From: a virus
Taxonomy: Duplodnaviria; Heunggongvirae; Uroviricota; Caudoviricetes
Length of the DNA stretch: 13,034 nucleotides
IMG/VR virus record: IMGVR_UViG_638341084_000022
Reading direction: 5' to 3' (one strand)
Part shown: positions 1 to 11,771 of the stretch, piece by piece
Layout of the letters: the number at the start of each line of letters is the position of its first letter
Numbering within the stretch: position 1 is the first letter of the stretch
Program-made: the position numbers and the translations under genes
Notes under the pieces: model-generated
The model's database searches: none
Seen by the model: the letters and a program-made list of their open reading frames with translations, nothing else
Told to the model about the DNA's origin: nothing

Positions 1-243
1 CTTTATCTGCTTCATGGCGGCAACAAGTTCAGAGGCAGGAACAACCTGTTCTCCGGCGGCGACAGCGGTAAGACTTCCTTCCTGGTATTGCTTACGCCAG
101 AGAAATAACTGGCTGGCTGCTACACCATGTTGCCGGGCAACGAGAGAGACCGTCATCCCCGGTTCAAAGCTCTGCTGAACAATTGCGATCTTTTCCTGTG
201 TGGTACGCCGTCTGCGTTTCTCCGGCCCTAAGACATCAATCAT
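1..243 (-). CDS. insC: IS2 OrfA (InsC) transposase N-terminal protein, 5' portion only (3' end outside window)
   Basis: Minus-strand ATG at 243-241. Translation [81 protein letters not shown] is the helix-turn-helix OrfA of IS2 as recalled. The frame is cut by the window edge. Confidence 0.85.
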
Positions 244-334
244 CTGTTCTCCAATGACTAGTCTAAAAACTAGTATTAAGACTATCACTTATTTAAGTGA
301 TACTGGTTGTCTGGAGATTCAGGGGGCCAGTCTA
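1..334 (-). mobile_element. IS2 (IS3 family) left end, partial; element continues beyond the window start
   Basis: Reverse complement of 294-334 reads TAGACTGGCCCCCTGAATCTCCAGACAACCAGTATCACTTAA..., which matches the IS2 left terminal inverted repeat as I recall it. It is followed by an orfA-type ORF. Identification is from memory of the IS2 sequence, not a search. Confidence 0.85.
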
Positions 335-814
335 ATTACTTTTTAATCTAAAATTGCTGCAATTAGATTCAATATCTTTATAAAGATGTAATCCTAACCC
401 ATCAATATGTCCGATGCGCGAACCATTTGAATAGAAGCTAATAATACCATCTCCATCTTGCCTAAATCCGGTGTCGTTATCTCCCAGAACAATGGAGTTT
501 TCACCCAGTGCGTTATCAGTAGCACCAATAGCTAGACCTCCTTCAATTTTGGCCCCGTGGCTGACATATATAGCACCTGTTCTTAGATTTATAGCGAATG
601 GCCTTAATGGGCCGATATCACCGTTTTCGCCTTGTCCTTCAGCCGTAGGGATGAAATGAAGGGACTCTTCTGAACGGCGGAAAATAAGACCGAAGGCATC
701 ATTAAAAATTCGCAGCGCATTCATCGTTCCAATTTTCAGTTCTCCGGTCATTTTATCGCCGGAACGCTGAACGGCGTTACCAGCCTTGTTTACCGTTTCC
801 TGTAAACCGAGGTT
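332..814 (-). CDS. phage tail-fibre variable C-terminal segment inside an invertible region; 3' end truncated by IS2
   Basis: The minus-strand frame is open from just below the in-frame TAA at 817-815 (inside the gix site) down to the TAG at 334-332. That TAG is formed by the first three bases of the IS2 terminus. The first ATG is at 751-749. The product is Gly/Asp/Asn-rich with short repeats (GAKIEGGLAIGATDNALGENSIVLGDNDTGF), as in variable C-terminal parts of Mu S / P1 S / e14 Stf-type fibres. Its position next to a gix site and invertase supports this. Family assignment is by eye. Confidence 0.5.
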   Translation of the reverse strand, partial: NLGLQETVNKAGNAVQRSGDKMTGELKIGTMNALRIFNDAFGLIFRRSEESLHFIPTAEGQGENGDIGPLRPFAINLRTGAIYVSHGAKIEGGLAIGATDNALGENSIVLGDNDTGFRQDGDGIISFYSNGSRIGHIDGLGLHLYKDIESNCSNFRLKSN

Positions 815-822
815 TTAGATAA
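797..822. promoter_or_regulatory. gix/cix/pix-type recombination (crossover) site for the adjacent invertase
   Basis: The 26-bp sequence TTCCTGTAAACCGAGGTTTTAGATAA is near-identical to the Gin/Cin/Pin crossover-site consensus as I recall it (TTCCTGTAAACCGAGGTTTTGGATAA), with imperfect dyad symmetry. It lies 55 bp upstream of the invertase start, as gixR does relative to gin in Mu. Confidence 0.75.
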
Positions 823-876
823 TGGCCGTTTCCGGCCTGCATGGCATGATTTGCGCTTTTGGACGGGAGATTCAGT

Positions 877-1467
877 GTGCTGATTGGTTATGTAAGGGTA
901 TCAACAAATGACCAGAATACAGACCTGCAACGAAACGCTCTTGTTTGTGCAGGATGTGAACAAATATTTGAAGATAAATTAAGCGGAACAAAGACAGACC
1001 GACCGGGATTAAAACGCGCTTTAAAGCAGCTTCAAAAAGGTGACACGCTGGTTGTCTGGAAACTGGATCGCCTTGGGCGAAGCATGAAACATCTGATTTC
1101 TCTCGTCGGAGAACTACGGGAGCGAGGGATTAATTTTCGCAGTCTGACCGACAGCATAGATACATCTTCTCCAATGGGGCGTTTTTTCTTCCACGTGATG
1201 GGTGCCCTGGCTGAAATGGAACGTGAATTAATTGTTGAACGTACACTGGCCGGACTGGCGGCAGCGCGCGCACGGGGGCGCACAGGCGGACGTCGACCGA
1301 AGCTGACAAAAGAACAGCATGAGCAAATAGCAAGGCTGATTAAAAACGGTCACGACAGAAAACAACTGGCAATAATTTACAGCATTGGTATATCGACAAT
1401 TTATCGTTACCACCCCGCAGGAGAATCAAGTGGAACAATTGAGAAGAGTAAACAAAATAACCGCTAA
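877..1467 (+). CDS. serine DNA invertase, Gin/Pin/Cin/Hin family
   Basis: Translation from GTG 877 is MLIGYVRVSTNDQNTDLQRNALVCAGCEQIFEDKLSGTKTDRPGLKRALKQLQKGDTLVVWKLDRLGRSMKHLISLVGELRERGINFRSLTDSIDTSSPMGRFFFHVMGALAEMERELIVERTLAGL..., nearly colinear with Gin/Pin as recalled, including the catalytic Ser in the VST motif. A GGGAGA Shine-Dalgarno sits 6 nt upstream of GTG 877. The ORF-track start at TTG 859 is probably too far upstream. Confidence 0.92.
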   Translation: MLIGYVRVSTNDQNTDLQRNALVCAGCEQIFEDKLSGTKTDRPGLKRALKQLQKGDTLVVWKLDRLGRSMKHLISLVGELRERGINFRSLTDSIDTSSPMGRFFFHVMGALAEMERELIVERTLAGLAAARARGRTGGRRPKLTKEQHEQIARLIKNGHDRKQLAIIYSIGISTIYRYHPAGESSGTIEKSKQNNR

Positions 1468-1492
1468 TCTGGCCATTAGCGGTTTTTGTGTT
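1461..1492. terminator. bidirectional intrinsic terminator between the convergent invertase and gpU genes
   Basis: Stem CCGCTAAT (1461-1468), loop CTGGCC, stem ATTAGCGG (1475-1482), followed by TTTTTGTGTT on the plus strand. The minus strand has an A/T-rich tail after the same hairpin. It overlaps the invertase stop codon and lies 4 nt from the gpU stop. Confidence 0.5.
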
Positions 1493-1996: not shown

Positions 1997-4819
1997 TCAA
2001 TCTTTATCGTAAAAACTGCCACGCCCGGCACGGGCGCGCCGTTCCATTTCTGCCCTGACCATTTCGCCAATCAGTTTCGCCAGTTCGCGGGGATTCTGTG
2101 TAACAACGTTATGCAGATGAACATGAATTTCACCGCAAAATCCGGAGGCAACAGGCTCCCGGTTACGGGAAGTTGCAGGAACTGATGCCACTGGCGATCG
2201 TATAGCCTCCGCCACCGGGCGGGAGCTGGCCGCAACAACAGGGACCAGCGCCGGAGGCAGCGGAGCCGGAACCACGGGTGTGATAGTAATTGCGGGGGCA
2301 GGCTTACTGACCTGCGCAATCTTCCGCTCCTGCCACTCCCCACGAACAGCAAGTGCGCGGGGCAGGTTCTTAAAGACAATATCGCCGGGGCCAATGCGTT
2401 TTTTCGTCTCATCAACCAGCTTACCTGTGTTATCAGCAATTTTGCTGAGTCTGCGTAGCGTACCGGTATTGTTGTCTGTGAGCGGTTTGTTGTCTCTGGG
2501 TTTATCGCCTTTTTTGTCGTCGACCTTATCTGACGGGGCCGGGCCGGGAGTCCATGGTTTCTGAACCATTTTCTTGAGAACCGGATCCCATTCCCACATT
2601 ACAGGAGCCTTTGAAGCGTTCTCTATTTTCTTTCTCGCCCGTTCCGCTTCATCCGGAAGCACTCCGAGCTTTTCAAGTATCCACGCCAGTGAATCCATCA
2701 ATGCTTTTGTTGGCGTCAGGACAAGCTCTATCGCTCCACCGAGTACCCTGCCGAATACCTCGCCAGCACTGGTACATTTATCCAGCGTTTCCTTGCTGGA
2801 CTCCATCGGTGACAGCAGCGATTTAAACCAGTTAAAGACCTGAATAATCCCATCGCGCACGACATCAAAAACTGGACCGAACCGTTCAAAGGTTTCGCGC
2901 AACGGAGCCAGCCGTTCCATAATCCCACTGAACACCCCTGCATAAAACGCCTTGATGGGTTCCCAGTATTTCCAGATGAGAACCGCCGCAGCCACAAACG
3001 CAGCAGCAATCAATCCGACCGGGCTGAACAGCGCCCCGATAGCGCCCCCCAGTAACGAAACGGAACCCGTCACCATTCCCCATAGTGCTGGCAGGAGCCT
3101 GACAGCATTCATTGATCCGGTCAGGAGGGAAAAGCCAAGACGCAGTTTTGCCAGCGGGCCAGCAAGCACACCAATAGCCAACGACAACGAGCCGACCGTT
3201 GCAGTCATCGCCAGCAATGCCCCACCTGCAATCAGTAGCTGGCGCGTCAGTGCCGGATGGGCCTGCGCCAGCGCCGTCACCTTTGATACCACCCGCGTGA
3301 GCCACTGCGTGACAGAACGCAGCGGACCGTCAATCAGATCTGCAATGCGGATGCGCAACCCTTCCCATGCACTGCCGAGTGATTTCAGATCGCCGTCAAG
3401 GTTGTTGGCCATAACCTTTGCTGTGCGTTCAGCCTCACCGCGCGCGCCTTCAAGTTCTTTTCTCAGTTTGGGTAAGGAGCCGTCACCCGCTGCATCAACG
3501 AGCGCCATAAACGATGTGAAAGCCTCTTCTCCGGCAATGTCCTTAAAGAACGATACCCGGTCAACTTCCCCGTATTTGCGGGTGGCTTTATAAAGGTCGG
3601 CCAGTACATCCTCCATCGGGCGCATTTTGCCGTTCGCGTCAGAGACAGCCACACCCAGCTCTTTCAGCGCCTCTGCTGCCGCCTTTGGCGGTGATGCCAG
3701 ACGAGCCAGGCTGGCACGCATTGCCGTCCCGGCATCACTCCCTCTGATGCCCATATTCGCCAGCACGCCCGCCATCGCAGCGGCCTGCTCCAGCGATATT
3801 CCCAGCTTACCCGCCACCGGACCTGCATATTTCATGGTTTCGCCCAGCGCGCGAAGGTCAGTGTTGGTACGGGTAAACGCCGCTGTAAGCGTGTCGCCAA
3901 CCCGGTCCATCTGGTCAGCAGAGAGGCCGAACTGCGTCAGGATATTTGAGCCAATATCCGCCGTCTCGCCGAGATCCATACCGCCAGCCGTTGCCATGCT
4001 CAGCACGCCGGGAAGCGCAGCCTGAATGGCCTGCGGAGTAAAACCAGCCATTGCAAGAAATGCCTGTCCACTGGCGGCATCTCCAGCGGTGAACTGCGTT
4101 TCAGAGCCAAGTTTTAACGCCTGCTCACGCAGCGCCTTAAACTGTGGGCTGTTTTTGTCGATTCGCGTCAGTGCCTGAACGCGGGACATCTCTTTCCCGA
4201 ACCCAATCGCGGGCTGCAAAAAACGCCCGGCAGCATAGCCGCCCGCCGCTGCCGCACCTGTTGCCAGTGCACCACCTGTTTTCAGTTTTCCCGCGGTTTC
4301 CTGCGCGCGCGAATACCGCTCACGCGCCCGCGTTACACGCGCAAGCGCCTGCCGTTCGCGTTCAAGCTGGTTGTTGTACTGTTCGGTGCGTCTGATGGCC
4401 TGTTGAATGGTGTTATCGCTGCCTGTCAGGGAAATGCCGTGGCGTTTCAGCTCTCCGCCAAGCTCCCGCATTTTCTGAATCTCCCGTGTGCGCGATTCAT
4501 TCAGGCGTTCAAGCCGGGTGCTTAACTGCTGCATCAGCTTTTGTTGTTTTTCGCTGAGCACTGTACCCGTGTGTTGTAACTGATTAAGGGCGTTAAGCTG
4601 GCGTCGAGCTTTCAATATGCCAGCATCCGCTTTACTGACAGCGTCACGGGCGCGCTCAAATGAACGCGCCTGACGCTCGAGATTTTTGATCGCCCCCTGC
4701 GTTCGCTGGATGGAGTCACCAAACTGCCCCATCAGGCGGCGGGCGTTTTCGGCAGGCCGGGTCAGCCTGTCAACGGCGCTGAAAGCGACCCGGATATCAA
4801 GAGTCTTCATTGTCTGCAT
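1997..4819 (-). CDS. T: phage tail tape measure protein (P2 gpT-like)
   Basis: A 940-949 aa ORF with coiled-coil N-terminal part and the conserved central tape-measure region (...LTQFGLSADQMDRVGDTLTAAFTRTNTDLRALGETMKYAGPVAGKLGISLEQAAAMAGVLANMGIRGSDAGTAMRA...). It sits between the chaperone E/E' and U. Start is uncertain: GTG 4846, ATG 4819 or ATG 4810 are all possible, and the 5' end overlaps the end of the E' frame. Confidence 0.9.
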   Translation of the reverse strand: MQTMKTLDIRVAFSAVDRLTRPAENARRLMGQFGDSIQRTQGAIKNLERQARSFERARDAVSKADAGILKARRQLNALNQLQHTGTVLSEKQQKLMQQLSTRLERLNESRTREIQKMRELGGELKRHGISLTGSDNTIQQAIRRTEQYNNQLERERQALARVTRARERYSRAQETAGKLKTGGALATGAAAAGGYAAGRFLQPAIGFGKEMSRVQALTRIDKNSPQFKALREQALKLGSETQFTAGDAASGQAFLAMAGFTPQAIQAALPGVLSMATAGGMDLGETADIGSNILTQFGLSADQMDRVGDTLTAAFTRTNTDLRALGETMKYAGPVAGKLGISLEQAAAMAGVLANMGIRGSDAGTAMRASLARLASPPKAAAEALKELGVAVSDANGKMRPMEDVLADLYKATRKYGEVDRVSFFKDIAGEEAFTSFMALVDAAGDGSLPKLRKELEGARGEAERTAKVMANNLDGDLKSLGSAWEGLRIRIADLIDGPLRSVTQWLTRVVSKVTALAQAHPALTRQLLIAGGALLAMTATVGSLSLAIGVLAGPLAKLRLGFSLLTGSMNAVRLLPALWGMVTGSVSLLGGAIGALFSPVGLIAAAFVAAAVLIWKYWEPIKAFYAGVFSGIMERLAPLRETFERFGPVFDVVRDGIIQVFNWFKSLLSPMESSKETLDKCTSAGEVFGRVLGGAIELVLTPTKALMDSLAWILEKLGVLPDEAERARKKIENASKAPVMWEWDPVLKKMVQKPWTPGPAPSDKVDDKKGDKPRDNKPLTDNNTGTLRRLSKIADNTGKLVDETKKRIGPGDIVFKNLPRALAVRGEWQERKIAQVSKPAPAITITPVVPAPLPPALVPVVAASSRPVAEAIRSPVASVPATSRNREPVASGFCGEIHVHLHNVVTQNPRELAKLIGEMVRAEMERRARAGRGSFYDKD

Positions 4820-8473: not shown

Positions 8474-9496
8474 TTAATACGCATTTAATTTAAATTTGTA
8501 TTTGCCTTCTATGTAATGGATAAATTCAATTATGCTTTTTTCTATCGCATCTAATATATGAATATATCCATCCCGATTTAAGGTCCTATCCAACTCAAAG
8601 TGATGAACTATCCCATGTCTATATTGTATGATTTCAGAAATTCGATTCTCAAGAAAATCAACTGATTTTCCAATTCTTTTTTTCTTATAAAGAATCGCTC
8701 TCACATCTATATCCAGCCACTCTTTATATGCTTTATTTAGGTGGGTTAAGTTTTGAAAAGTGTAATTTCTTGCAATAACACTTTCTATTGAAATATTTCC
8801 TTTCTCTATCTCAAGCAGAATATCAAAATCAACTTTTTGCTTATACGATGTTCTTTTTGCTATTGCGAAAGGATCGTACTTTATAAGTATTTGAAAAGCT
8901 CTAGAGAAAAAATATTCAAACATAGCAACCGCAAAAGGTACTAATCCATTATATATAACTCTACTGGGATCCATACATTGCATGTAATCAAAGTATTCGG
9001 ATAAGCCGCCATCTTCCGGTAGGTTTAATTTAATAGAAGGTTCAGGTAAGGCATGTTTAACAGCGGAAATCTCATGATGGACATGATTAAATATTGAAGA
9101 AATGCCACGACTGATCGGACTACTAGAATCCTTCCATAGAGGAGCGTACCTATTTTTCCCATAATCACCTATAAGTGTTCCACCAAAAAGACTCCGTGCG
9201 CCTTTTAGAACATCATTAAGCATTTTTACATCATGCCAACTAGCGCTATATAAATTACGCACATGCAATGCCCATTTATTACCAGATATGTGTAGTTCGT
9301 CATTTGAAACAGGATATATATCAGCCGAAACTCCATCTGTAGATTTGAAGTCCGTATCATCAAACCAAGAGTAATTCAACGTTCCTTGGGGCCATTCCCA
9401 CAAATGTTTACACCTTTTAAAACCTAAATTTTCAAGGTAATTTTTAAGTTCGTTTCTAGTTGCTTTTTTAGGGTACAGCGTTATATCTCTTCCCAT
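8474..9496 (-). CDS. hypothetical protein, AT-rich cargo gene inserted between D and ogr; possible HEPN-like C-terminal domain
   Basis: An uninterrupted 340-codon ORF with an AGGTGA Shine-Dalgarno about 8 nt upstream of ATG 9496. It is visibly more AT-rich than the flanking tail genes and uses AGA/ATA codons. The C-terminal region has an R-x4-H arrangement (QYRHGIVHH, residues 293-298, nt 8620-8603) followed by a predicted final helix, as in HEPN nuclease domains. I recognise no family with confidence. Confidence 0.75.
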   Translation of the reverse strand: MGRDITLYPKKATRNELKNYLENLGFKRCKHLWEWPQGTLNYSWFDDTDFKSTDGVSADIYPVSNDELHISGNKWALHVRNLYSASWHDVKMLNDVLKGARSLFGGTLIGDYGKNRYAPLWKDSSSPISRGISSIFNHVHHEISAVKHALPEPSIKLNLPEDGGLSEYFDYMQCMDPSRVIYNGLVPFAVAMFEYFFSRAFQILIKYDPFAIAKRTSYKQKVDFDILLEIEKGNISIESVIARNYTFQNLTHLNKAYKEWLDIDVRAILYKKKRIGKSVDFLENRISEIIQYRHGIVHHFELDRTLNRDGYIHILDAIEKSIIEFIHYIEGKYKFKLNAY

Positions 9497-10138: not shown

Positions 10139-10279
10139 ATGTCGCAAAAATCGCTTACAGCCATCACGTTCTGCGTGACGGTAATCCTCATCATCTGGAT
10201 GTTGCACGGTTCGCTGTGCGAAATACGGATGAGTTTCTGGGGAGCGGAGTTTGCGGCGTTCTTACAGTGTAAGCAGTAA
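10139..10279 (+). CDS. Hok/Gef-family type I toxin (46 aa small membrane peptide)
   Basis: This small ORF is not in the six-frame track (under 60 aa). Translation is MSQKSLTAITFCVTVILIIWMLHGSLCEIRMSFWGAEFAAFLQCKQ: an N-terminal transmembrane helix, then the SLCE(I/L) motif and an AAFL-x-CK tail, as in HokA/Hok as recalled. An AAGGAG Shine-Dalgarno sits 8 nt upstream. Fold-back complementarity of the mRNA ends supports a hok-type locus (see findings). Confidence 0.7.
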   Translation: MSQKSLTAITFCVTVILIIWMLHGSLCEIRMSFWGAEFAAFLQCKQ

Positions 10280-10288
10280 GGAAACCGC

Positions 10289-10540: not shown

Positions 10541-10873
10541 ATGGCATTAATCAAATGTCCTGAATGCCAGAAAGAGGTGAGCGATTCAGCATTGTATTGC
10601 CCTGCTTGCGGTAAACAAATAAAAAAACTTAAGCGTTCATTTTTTGGAAAGCTCATTAAGTGGATTTTTATATTATTTAATATTTTTATGATCTATACGC
10701 TTTTAGTTGGACTGGGAGGCACTAGTGAAATAATAAATAATGCAACATCCGATGCCGAAAAAGCCGGTGTAGTTATTGGTACAGGCTTAGGTTTAATTAC
10801 CATTGGAAGTTTATGGGTTATTGGCGATATCATTATCGGAATTTTAGTGTTTCTTACTAAACCAAAAGGATAA
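10541..10873 (+). CDS. small zinc-ribbon membrane protein (CxxC-x10-CxxC N-terminus, two predicted TM helices)
   Basis: MALIKCPECQKEVSDSALYCPACGK..., followed by two hydrophobic stretches (IKWIFILFNIFMIYTLLVGLGG and VVIGTGLGLITIGSLWVIGDIIIGILVFL). An AGGAGG Shine-Dalgarno sits 8 nt upstream. The gene is AT-rich. Confidence 0.7.
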   Translation: MALIKCPECQKEVSDSALYCPACGKQIKKLKRSFFGKLIKWIFILFNIFMIYTLLVGLGGTSEIINNATSDAEKAGVVIGTGLGLITIGSLWVIGDIIIGILVFLTKPKG

Positions 10874-10877
10874 CAAA

Positions 10878-11771
10878 ATGAAAAATATAATTTTTTCTAT
10901 AGGTGCATCATTTATATCAATTAGTGTACTGCCTGTTCACGCAGCAACTGAACATAATAACTTCAATGCAGTACTCCAGTGCCGAGCAATAGAAAATAAT
11001 AAAGACAGACTTTCTTGTTACGATAAGTCAATACAACCGACTCGAACGAAAGTTGCTGAAAAATTCGAAAGCAGAGATCAATGCCCTGATGAGAAAGATG
11101 ATGACAGACGTTTATCTTGTTATGATCGTTTTTTTTCTCCAACATTTACTCCATCTGTAAACTCAAAATCTAAAACGGAAAAGCCAGTAACAACAGAGGC
11201 TCAGCAACCAAATCTTTCTGAGATATCTAAATGCCGAGCAGAAAATGATAAAGAAGCCAGACTAAACTGCTACGATAAACTATTCCCACAGGATAAAGCT
11301 GTTCAAGCTGAATCAAAATTAGAGAAAGCCACAGATGTAGGAAAATGGCACACATCCATTACTACATCGCCAATTGATGATTCGAAAAATGTAATTTTAT
11401 CGTTAGAAAGTGATGATTATATCAGAACTCCATTTGGAGAAGCGGTTACTCCTACTCTGTTTATAGCTTGCCGAGAAAAGAAAACCGAAGTATTTCTTAG
11501 TTGGGATGTATATTTAGGCCTTGAACAAACCAGCATGCTTTATCGTCTTGATAAACAGAAAGCAGTTGAGCGAAACTGGCTAGTATCTACAGATACAAAG
11601 GCTGTTTTTTATAAAGGTAATGACATTGATTTCATCCGAAAACTAGCCAACTCAAACAAAATGTATACAAAAATAACTCCTTATAATGAGAGCCCTGTAA
11701 GTGCAACTTTCAATTTAAACGGCCTGTCAAACGCGCTAAAACCACTTCAAGCTGCTTGTAACTGGAAATAG
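10878..11771 (+). CDS. secreted protein with three tandem Cys-containing repeats (C-x8-RL[SN]CYD[KR]) and a C-terminal domain of unknown function
   Basis: Sec-type signal peptide (MKNIIFSIGASFISISVLPVHA / ATE). Repeats lie at residues 35-50, 69-84 and 119-134 (nt 10980-11279). It starts 4 nt after the zinc-ribbon gene stop, with an AAGGA Shine-Dalgarno, so is likely co-transcribed. The gene is AT-rich. Confidence 0.75.
   Translation: MKNIIFSIGASFISISVLPVHAATEHNNFNAVLQCRAIENNKDRLSCYDKSIQPTRTKVAEKFESRDQCPDEKDDDRRLSCYDRFFSPTFTPSVNSKSKTEKPVTTEAQQPNLSEISKCRAENDKEARLNCYDKLFPQDKAVQAESKLEKATDVGKWHTSITTSPIDDSKNVILSLESDDYIRTPFGEAVTPTLFIACREKKTEVFLSWDVYLGLEQTSMLYRLDKQKAVERNWLVSTDTKAVFYKGNDIDFIRKLANSNKMYTKITPYNESPVSATFNLNGLSNALKPLQAACNWK

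What the first reader, a model, noticed from the sequence alone, without database searches (positions are those of the whole stretch)
332..1467. Orphan invertible tail-fibre switch: coding frame runs through the gix site, segment locked next to the invertase and truncated by IS2
The gix-type 26-mer (797-822) lies inside an open minus-strand frame that continues into the tail-fibre-like ORF, as expected when the crossover site is within the fibre gene so that inversion swaps alternative C-termini. In the present orientation this variable segment faces the invertase rather than a constant fibre 5' part, so it is in the silent orientation. Its 3' end is cut by IS2, with the ORF stop codon supplied by the IS2 terminus. 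The invertase itself looks intact, including catalytic-Ser context and Shine-Dalgarno, and could still act on other gix sites in the genome.
Basis: partly seen in the sequence, partly recalled or inferred. Interest (0 to 1): 0.55.

Follow-up and report, generated by a model that had tools for sequence, protein, structure and literature searches.

The report
IS2-interrupted invertible phage tail-fibre switch
This is the invertase-side end of an ordinary Mu-type flip-flop switch for tail-fibre tips in a P88/P2-like prophage of E. coli B171; an IS2 element has split one of the two alternative tips, and the rest of the switch lies just beyond the IS2 on another contig of the same draft assembly, so it is not an orphan.

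Summary
There is a 26-bp site (797-822) that matches Mu gix at 25 of 26 bases. A minus-strand tail-fibre frame starts inside that site and runs to 332. The left end of IS2 cuts the frame at 334/335 and supplies its TAG stop. An intact Gin-like invertase follows (877-1467, 85% identical to Mu Gin).

The reading "orphan / locked" is wrong. The window starts at the first base of a draft contig (E. coli B171, AAJX02000019.1) that breaks inside IS2. A second contig of the same assembly (AAJX02000102.1) holds the other IS2 end, the 5-bp target duplication, the missing 141 codons of the fibre tip, both fibre-chaperone genes, the other variable tip, a second gix site in inverted orientation and the constant fibre part. 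So IS2 made a simple insertion, enlarging a 2,978-bp invertible segment to about 4.3 kb.

Near-identical prophages carry the same cassette uninterrupted, either silent (FDAARGOS_1059) or flipped and fused to the constant part (E300082). This shows the frame through the site is used.

In B171 the intact tip is in the expressed position and the IS2-broken tip is silent. The system, the phage family and this sequence are already known. Interest is low.

The parts
1..334 (-). Left end (IRL side) of IS2. The 5' part of its first transposase ORF (insC/orfA) runs 243->1. The window and the draft contig begin inside the element.
   Evidence: Matches thousands of plasmid records at 97-98% under 'IS3-like element IS2 family transposase'. 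HTH_Tnp_1 domain. The end at 334 was fixed by comparing three copies with different flanks. A full copy is 1331 bp with 5-bp direct repeats.
335..339 (.). ATTAC, the 5-bp IS2 target site. It is repeated at the other IS2 end, outside the window.
   Evidence: L011 (same assembly) reads ...GGGGCAAATCCA|GTAAT|TACCGCCACC. The ORF predicted from such a duplication exists exactly as BAG66656.1.
332..814 (-). 5' part of the silent alternative fibre C-terminus cassette (H'v, equivalent to Mu S'v). It holds 159 of 300 codons (811-335) plus a TAG stop (334-332) supplied by IS2. It has no start codon or promoter of its own.
   Evidence: Translation. 159/159 identical to the silent cassette of FDAARGOS_1059, and 158/159 identical to residues 378-536 of the expressed 677-aa fibre of E300082. 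PHROG tail fibre families. No promoter-like site in 700-1560.
797..822 (+). Invertase-proximal crossover site (gixR equivalent). The inner half (797-~809) is coding and shared with the partner site. The outer half contains a TAA (817-815).
   Evidence: Unique in the window, 0 in shuffles. 25/26 identical to Mu gix. The inner flanks are swapped between L001 and L005 while the outer half-sites stay put.
866..871 (+). Shine-Dalgarno-like GGGAGA upstream of the invertase start codon (GTG, 877).
   Evidence: Aligns with the annotated Mu gin ribosome-binding site.
877..1467 (+). Gin-family serine DNA invertase, 196 aa, intact. By comparison with Mu, its 5' part is expected to hold the Fis-dependent enhancer (inferred).
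   Evidence: Resolvase E 1e-50 and HTH_7. Mu Gin structures 4m6f/3uj3 at E ~1e-100. 85% identity to Mu Gin. The DNA of 877-1100 differs from Mu at only 7 positions. Same protein as WP_000905050.1 in intact prophages.
1459..1484 (.). Hairpin with T-runs on both strands. A likely bidirectional terminator between the invertase gene and the convergent tail gene gpU (1496-1990, minus).
   Evidence: Terminator scan. gpU is identified by PF06995.

Best explanation
The region is the right-hand end of the invertible tail-fibre segment of a P88-like (Xuanwuvirus, P2 family) prophage. The prophage sits next to flk in enteropathogenic E. coli B171.

How the switch works: a Gin-type serine invertase (877-1467) recombines two inverted 26-bp sites. 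One site lies inside the fibre gene H, after codon ~377. The other is the window's site, next to the invertase. Flipping the segment joins the constant fibre part either to tip Hv (with chaperone G) or to tip H'v (with chaperone G'), which changes receptor specificity.

What happened in B171: one IS2 copy inserted into H'v after codon 159 of the cassette and duplicated ATTAC. The segment grew from 2,978 to about 4,314 bp.

Current state: in the assembled orientation the intact Hc-Hv fibre is expressed and the broken H'v is silent. After inversion the fibre would stop at the IS2 terminus (536 instead of 677 aa). It would lack the gp37-type trimerisation region and the receptor-binding end, and G' would be cut off by IS2.

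Shown: the anatomy, both IS2 junctions, the second site, and both orientations of the intact cassette in other strains. Inferred: that the two contigs are adjacent, that the enhancer is functional, and that inversion still occurs in B171.
For: - Source and contig end.
- Site and frame.
- IS2 boundary.
- Intact syntenic prophages at 100% and 96% identity, with H, G, G', H'v, invertase, U, T, E, FII, FI, D and ogr.
- Phage P88 has the same order.
- Mu annotation of S', gix and gin in the same layout.
- Flipped isomer in E300082 with the same cassette fused in frame to the constant part.
- The predicted IS2/fibre chimeric ORF and the 126-aa remainder ORF exist exactly (BAG66656.1; EDX27705.1 of B171). 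The window's ORF is BAG66659.1/EDX29589.1.
- Partner contig with IS2's right end, GTAAT, the rest of H'v, two Caudo_TAP genes, Hv, an inverted gix site and Hc, with the Hc-Hv frame open for 537 codons to its stop.
- Invertase identity.
- The gp37_trimer domain lies at cassette residues 164-233, just beyond the break.
- Active inversion of such loci in P2-like prophages of another EPEC strain was measured by sequencing: PMC4272514.
- Gin mechanism: PMC3575834.
Against: - The two B171 contigs both end inside IS2, a multi-copy element, and 201 bp of IS2 are not covered by either. Their adjacency is therefore inferred. It rests on the matching 5-bp duplication, the exact continuity of the fibre frame, and accession numbers BAG66656/BAG66659, which lie three apart. 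I could not read that record or the paper describing it.
- There is no read-level evidence that inversion occurs in B171. Both assemblies that carry the insertion show the same orientation.
- The enhancer is inferred only from 97% DNA identity to Mu.
Confidence: 0.9

Rival explanations
1. One reading: a dead, orphaned remnant. The variable cassette and invertase are left alone after IS2 removed the rest of the switch. No partner site or constant fibre part remains, so the segment is locked.
For: Within the 13-kb window there is only one gix-like site, even allowing 3 mismatches, and no constant fibre part. The sequence left of 334 is IS2.
Against: The window starts at a contig end inside IS2. 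The same assembly holds the other IS2 junction with the target duplication, the rest of the cassette, the inverted partner site and the constant part.
Confidence: 0.03
2. Both IS2 junctions exist, but recombination between two IS2 copies (an inversion or translocation) has since separated the two halves of the segment. The partner gix site would then be far away and the switch would be effectively broken.
For: Both contigs terminate in IS2, and IS2 is multi-copy in this lineage: related complete genomes show 7-18 matching places for a query that is 44% IS2 sequence. Draft data cannot tell this apart from a simple insertion.
Against: A second assembly, GCA_002466105.1, has the same two junctions. 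A simple insertion is the most economical reading.
Confidence: 0.05
3. The ORF from the ATG at 751 (139 aa here, 280 aa in intact copies, annotated 'tail fiber protein') is an independently expressed protein rather than a start-less cassette.
For: Annotation pipelines call it as a free-standing gene.
Against: No promoter-like site lies between it and the invertase. The frame is open upstream of the ATG back into the crossover site. It is fused in frame to the constant part in the flipped isomers. Mu S' is annotated as a C-terminal cassette in the same position.
Confidence: 0.02

Closest known systems
Bacteriophage Mu G segment with Gin (S/U and S'/U' tail-fibre genes, gixL/gixR)
   Same: Same layout: silent S'-type cassette, then crossover site, then invertase gene on the opposite strand. 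The site is 25/26 identical and the invertase 85% identical. The DNA from the site into the first 225 nt of the invertase gene is ~95-97% identical. The crossover lies inside the fibre gene, and paired chaperone genes lie inside the segment.
   Different: The host phage is a P2-family myovirus, not Mu. The constant fibre part is ~377 aa with a P2 H-type collar domain (PF12571), against ~170 aa in Mu. The two sites of this phage differ from each other at 3 bases in the outer half. Here the segment also contains an IS2.
Escherichia phage P88 (Xuanwuvirus, Peduoviridae) and its prophage relatives in E. coli
   Same: Same gene order: J, I, H, G, G', H'v, invertase, then the inverted tail operon U-T-E-FII-FI, then D. 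93-97% nucleotide identity over the site, invertase and gpU. Identical crossover sites.
   Different: P88 carries a different variable cassette next to the invertase: homology stops at window ~782. It has no IS2.
Invertible tail-fibre loci of P2-like prophages in EPEC E2348/69, and the e14 Pin / P segment of E. coli K-12
   Same: Hin/Gin-family invertases switch fibre C-termini in resident prophages, and both orientations coexist in cultures (PMC4272514).
   Different: Those loci are not reported as IS-disrupted. e14 is a lambdoid remnant with a different fibre.
IS2 (IS3 family) insertions in prophage genes of EPEC/EHEC
   Same: A 1331-bp element with a 5-bp target duplication and typical terminal sequence.
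   Different: Nothing unusual. The only particular point is that the target is the silent half of an invertible segment.

Membership tests
Gin/Hin/Cin/Pin (Din) DNA-invertase tail-fibre switches | Small serine recombinase: N-terminal catalytic domain with the active-site serine near residue 9, and a C-terminal helix-turn-helix. | tested here: met
   Resolvase + HTH_7. Residues 1-38 are identical to Gin, including S9. Ser9 is the Gin phosphoserine according to Klippel 1988, as cited in PMC3575834.
Gin/Hin/Cin/Pin (Din) DNA-invertase tail-fibre switches | Two ~26-bp crossover sites in inverted orientation flanking the segment. | tested here: met
   Window site at 797-822. Partner site at L011 3266-3291 in the same assembly, in opposite orientation relative to the fibre direction. 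The link between the two contigs is inferred.
Gin/Hin/Cin/Pin (Din) DNA-invertase tail-fibre switches | Crossover site inside the fibre gene, so that inversion fuses one constant N-terminal part to alternative C-termini in frame. | tested here: met
   Both sites read ...LGLQETVN... in the fibre frame. E300082 encodes the fused 677-aa protein with this cassette, and FDAARGOS_1059 encodes the alternative 696-aa one.
Gin/Hin/Cin/Pin (Din) DNA-invertase tail-fibre switches | A matched fibre-assembly chaperone gene for each alternative tip inside the segment. | tested here: met
   Two convergent Caudo_TAP genes on L011 and in the intact relatives.
Gin/Hin/Cin/Pin (Din) DNA-invertase tail-fibre switches | Fis-bound recombinational enhancer in cis. 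In Mu it lies in the 5' part of gin (location from my own knowledge). | tested here: inconclusive
   Only 7 differences from Mu in window 877-1100. Fis binding was not modelled or tested.
Gin/Hin/Cin/Pin (Din) DNA-invertase tail-fibre switches | The segment is actually found in both orientations. | tested here: met
   Met across strains: the same cassette is silent in L001 and in the window, and expressed in L005 and L010, with inner flanks exchanged at the sites. Within B171 itself this is not testable with these tools, because no reads are available.
IS2 (IS3 family insertion sequence) | Characteristic terminal sequence, 1331 bp, first ORF with a transposase HTH, 5-bp target duplication. | tested here: met
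   The window holds 334 bp and L011 holds 796 bp. The middle 201 bp were not seen.
P88-like (Xuanwuvirus) P2-family prophage | P2-type tail and baseplate genes, with the FI-U tail operon inverted relative to H/G and an invertase between them. | tested here: met
   Window ORFs with Phage_P2_GpU, PhageMin_Tail, Phage_P2_GpE, Phage_tube, Phage_sheath, Phage_GPD and Ogr_Delta domains. Synteny with P88.

The most novel reading that the evidence does not exclude
The IS2-bearing segment still inverts, and the lysogen has turned a two-host-range switch into an on/off switch. In one orientation the prophage makes infectious particles. In the other it makes fibre-defective particles, and late transcription reads into IS2, which lies in the same direction as the cassette, so IS2 activity could be coupled to the phase of the switch. 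Nothing here excludes this, and nothing supports it beyond the anatomy.
Probability: 0.03. Interest if true: 0.3.

Novelty: already known. Interest (0 to 1): 0.08.

Why it matters
It matters little beyond annotation. The case shows how a contig break in a repeated IS can make a complete system look orphaned. It also shows that start-less invertible cassettes get annotated as free-standing 'tail fiber protein' genes. For B171 biology, it predicts that one of the prophage's two host-range states is dead.

Tried and rejected
- An exact search for the IS2/fibre junction in one-genome-per-species contigs found nothing.
- A junction search in 5,426 complete E. coli genomes found no record spanning it. 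The insertion is therefore confined to the B171 lineage drafts.
- A plasmid search to fix the IS2 boundary was uninformative on its own, because the best-ranked hits extended by chance 9-18 bases past the end. Aligning three copies resolved it.
- The Ogura et al. 2008 paper on B171-8 islands (PMC2580699) is not held, so the contiguous GenBank record could not be checked.
- Pfam gave no domain for the 159-aa fragment alone. PHROGs did.
- Rfam found nothing in the window at gathering thresholds.
- PADLOC and PHROGs found nothing for the 340-aa cargo ORF.
- I considered that the inverted tail operon (D on the opposite strand to FI-U) might reflect a large invertase-mediated rearrangement. I rejected this because it is the normal order in phage P88 and in all the relatives.

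Full report
**What is in the window**

Bases 1-334 are the left end of IS2.
- They match IS2 in thousands of plasmid records at 97-98%.
- The minus strand from 243 to 1 encodes the N-terminal part of the first IS2 transposase ORF, with an HTH_Tnp_1 domain.
- Two complete IS2 copies with other flanks (L008, L009) share ...GGGGGCCAGTCTA with the window and diverge immediately afterwards. The element therefore ends at exactly 334.
- Those two copies are 1331 bp long and are flanked by 5-bp direct repeats.

From 335 leftward-reading (minus strand) there is a tail-fibre reading frame.
- It is open from 814 to the stop at 334-332.
- The stop TAG is the terminal TA of IS2 plus its next base. The uninterrupted gene reads AAT TAC CGC at this point.

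The 26-mer TTCCTGTAAACCGAGGTTTTAGATAA at 797-822 is unique in the window.
- It has no match even with three mismatches, and none in 200 shuffles.
- It differs from both gix sites of phage Mu at a single base.
- That one difference creates a TAA (817-815) in the fibre frame. The frame therefore starts inside the site and does not run through all of it.

The invertase gene starts at GTG 877, as in Mu and in the RefSeq annotation of relatives, not at the TTG at 859.
- It encodes 196 residues with Resolvase and HTH_7 domains.
- It matches the solved Gin structures at E ~1e-100 and is 85% identical to Mu Gin.
- Its first 38 residues are identical to Gin, including Ser9.
- A hairpin at 1459-1484 with T-runs on both strands separates it from the convergent P2 gpU gene.

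**What the intact system looks like**

The stretch 335-1500 is 100% identical to prophages in E. coli FDAARGOS_1059 and O111:H2 strain 12A. In FDAARGOS_1059 the prophage sits at the same chromosomal place, next to tagO and flk.

There the gene order is V, W, J, I, H (696 aa), G, then on the other strand G' and H'v. Next comes the invertase, then the tail operon U-T-E'-E-FII-FI on the other strand, then D and ogr. Phage P88 (Xuanwuvirus, Peduoviridae) has the same order and 93-97% identity over the site, invertase and gpU. The inverted tail operon is therefore normal for this phage group.

A second site, TTCCTGTAAACCGAGGTATTCGATAA, lies inside H in inverted orientation. Both sites read LGLQETVN in the fibre frame, at codon 378 of H.

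In strain E300082 the same cassette lies at the H site and forms one 677-aa ORF. It is 158/159 identical over the part kept in the window. The other cassette lies next to the invertase. Between the two strains the 15 bases inside each site have changed places, while the outer half-sites have stayed put. That is the signature of site-specific inversion. It also shows that the frame entering the site is a used coding frame.

Mu's own annotation has S', the G-segment boundary and gin in exactly this arrangement.

**What IS2 did, and why the switch is not orphaned**

An exact-sequence look-up of the 139-aa ORF placed the window at the very start of contig AAJX02000019.1 of assembly GCA_000167895.4. 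Its proteins are labelled E. coli B171. So the window begins where a draft contig breaks inside IS2.

I built the sequence expected from a simple IS2 insertion with a 5-bp duplication. I then derived the ORFs that would cover the far junction. Two of them exist exactly in public collections:
- a 155-aa chimera that starts in the IS2 right end (MITDVWKYRGKSSN-YRHH...), deposited as BAG66656.1 from E. coli O111:H-;
- a 126-aa internal-start version, EDX27705.1 of B171.

The window's own ORF is BAG66659.1 / EDX29589.1. The two BAG numbers are three apart, which leaves room for the two IS2 ORFs.

The 126-aa protein maps to contig AAJX02000102.1 of the same assembly (L011, 3,935 bp). That contig contains, in order:
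- 796 bp of the IS2 right end;
- GTAAT (ATTAC on the window's plus strand);
- the missing 141 codons of the cassette;
- G' and G, both with Caudo_TAP domains;
- the other variable tip;
- the partner site at 3266-3291, inverted relative to the window's site;
- the constant part of H. The Hc-Hv frame is open for all 537 codons present, down to its stop.

A second assembly, GCA_002466105.1, has both junctions too. None of 5,426 complete E. coli genomes has the junction.

The segment including both sites is 2,978 bp in the intact relative. It would be 4,314 bp with IS2.

**How it most likely works now**

Gin-type invertases bind each site as dimers, synapse with help from Fis, cleave through a serine-DNA link, rotate and religate (PMC3575834). 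All the protein and DNA parts for this are present in B171.

The 5' part of the invertase gene differs from Mu at only 7 of about 225 positions. In Mu that part carries the enhancer; this location is from my own knowledge and was not tested here.

In the assembled orientation the intact Hc-Hv fibre and chaperone G are expressed. The IS2-split cassette is silent, with no promoter-like site ahead of it.

After inversion the fibre would end at the IS2 terminus, at 536 instead of 677 residues. It would lose the gp37-type trimerisation region, which maps to cassette residues 164-233, just past the break. It would also lose the C-terminal end, which resembles those of Mu S and S'. G' would be separated from the fibre gene by IS2. 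So one of the two host-range states is dead.

Whether the enlarged segment still inverts in B171 is not known. From my own knowledge, comparable segments such as the ~4.2-kb P1 C segment do invert. Inversion in P2-like prophages of another EPEC strain has been measured (PMC4272514).

**Comparison with what is known, and verdict**

This is a member of the Mu G / P1 C / e14 P family of invertible tail-fibre switches, carried by a known phage genus. It has an ordinary IS2 insertion, and the sequence was deposited and annotated years ago. Every defining feature that could be tested was met. The exceptions are enhancer function (inconclusive) and in-strain inversion (not testable here).

Its headline, an orphan and locked switch, is an artefact of the window ending inside a repeat.

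Remaining uncertainty is confined to two points: whether the two contigs are physically adjacent, and whether inversion is still active.

Noticed in passing
window 8474-9496 (minus strand): A 340-aa ORF sits in a 32-36% GC island between gpD and ogr. Its only match is a sub-threshold Pfam hit to HEPN_RiboL-PSP (22.5 bits against a 28.4 cut-off); PADLOC and PHROGs find nothing. The slot varies between relatives: empty in FDAARGOS_1059 and occupied by a DUF3800 protein in T28R. It looks like a cargo or possible anti-phage-defence hotspot of P88-like prophages.
   Followed up: partly
window ~10141-10281 (plus strand): A Hok/Gef-family toxin ORF lies just beyond ogr, near the prophage end (PF01848, weak). 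Rfam found no antisense-RNA or hok-mRNA family at gathering score.
   Followed up: partly
window 333-760: The same fibre cassette occurs at ~96% identity on several 32-117 kb E. coli plasmids, annotated as tail fibre protein. These are possibly P1-like phage-plasmids, which would fit exchange of fibre cassettes between unrelated phages (H65, H67, H73-H75).
   Followed up: no
L001 13575-14417; window 332-751: Annotation pipelines call the silent, start-less cassette as a free-standing 280-aa (here 139-aa) 'tail fiber protein' from an internal ATG. B171's copy was even named 'long tail fiber protein p37'.
   Followed up: yes
L010 (GCA_900449185.1, UGBR01000004.1): A related prophage carries this cassette in the expressed orientation. 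Most of its genes are split into fragments, which suggests an indel-rich assembly rather than real decay.
   Followed up: no
window 10541-11771: A zinc-ribbon protein and a TagO-annotated (type VI secretion-associated) lipoprotein lie in a 35-40% GC stretch between the prophage end and flk.
   Followed up: no
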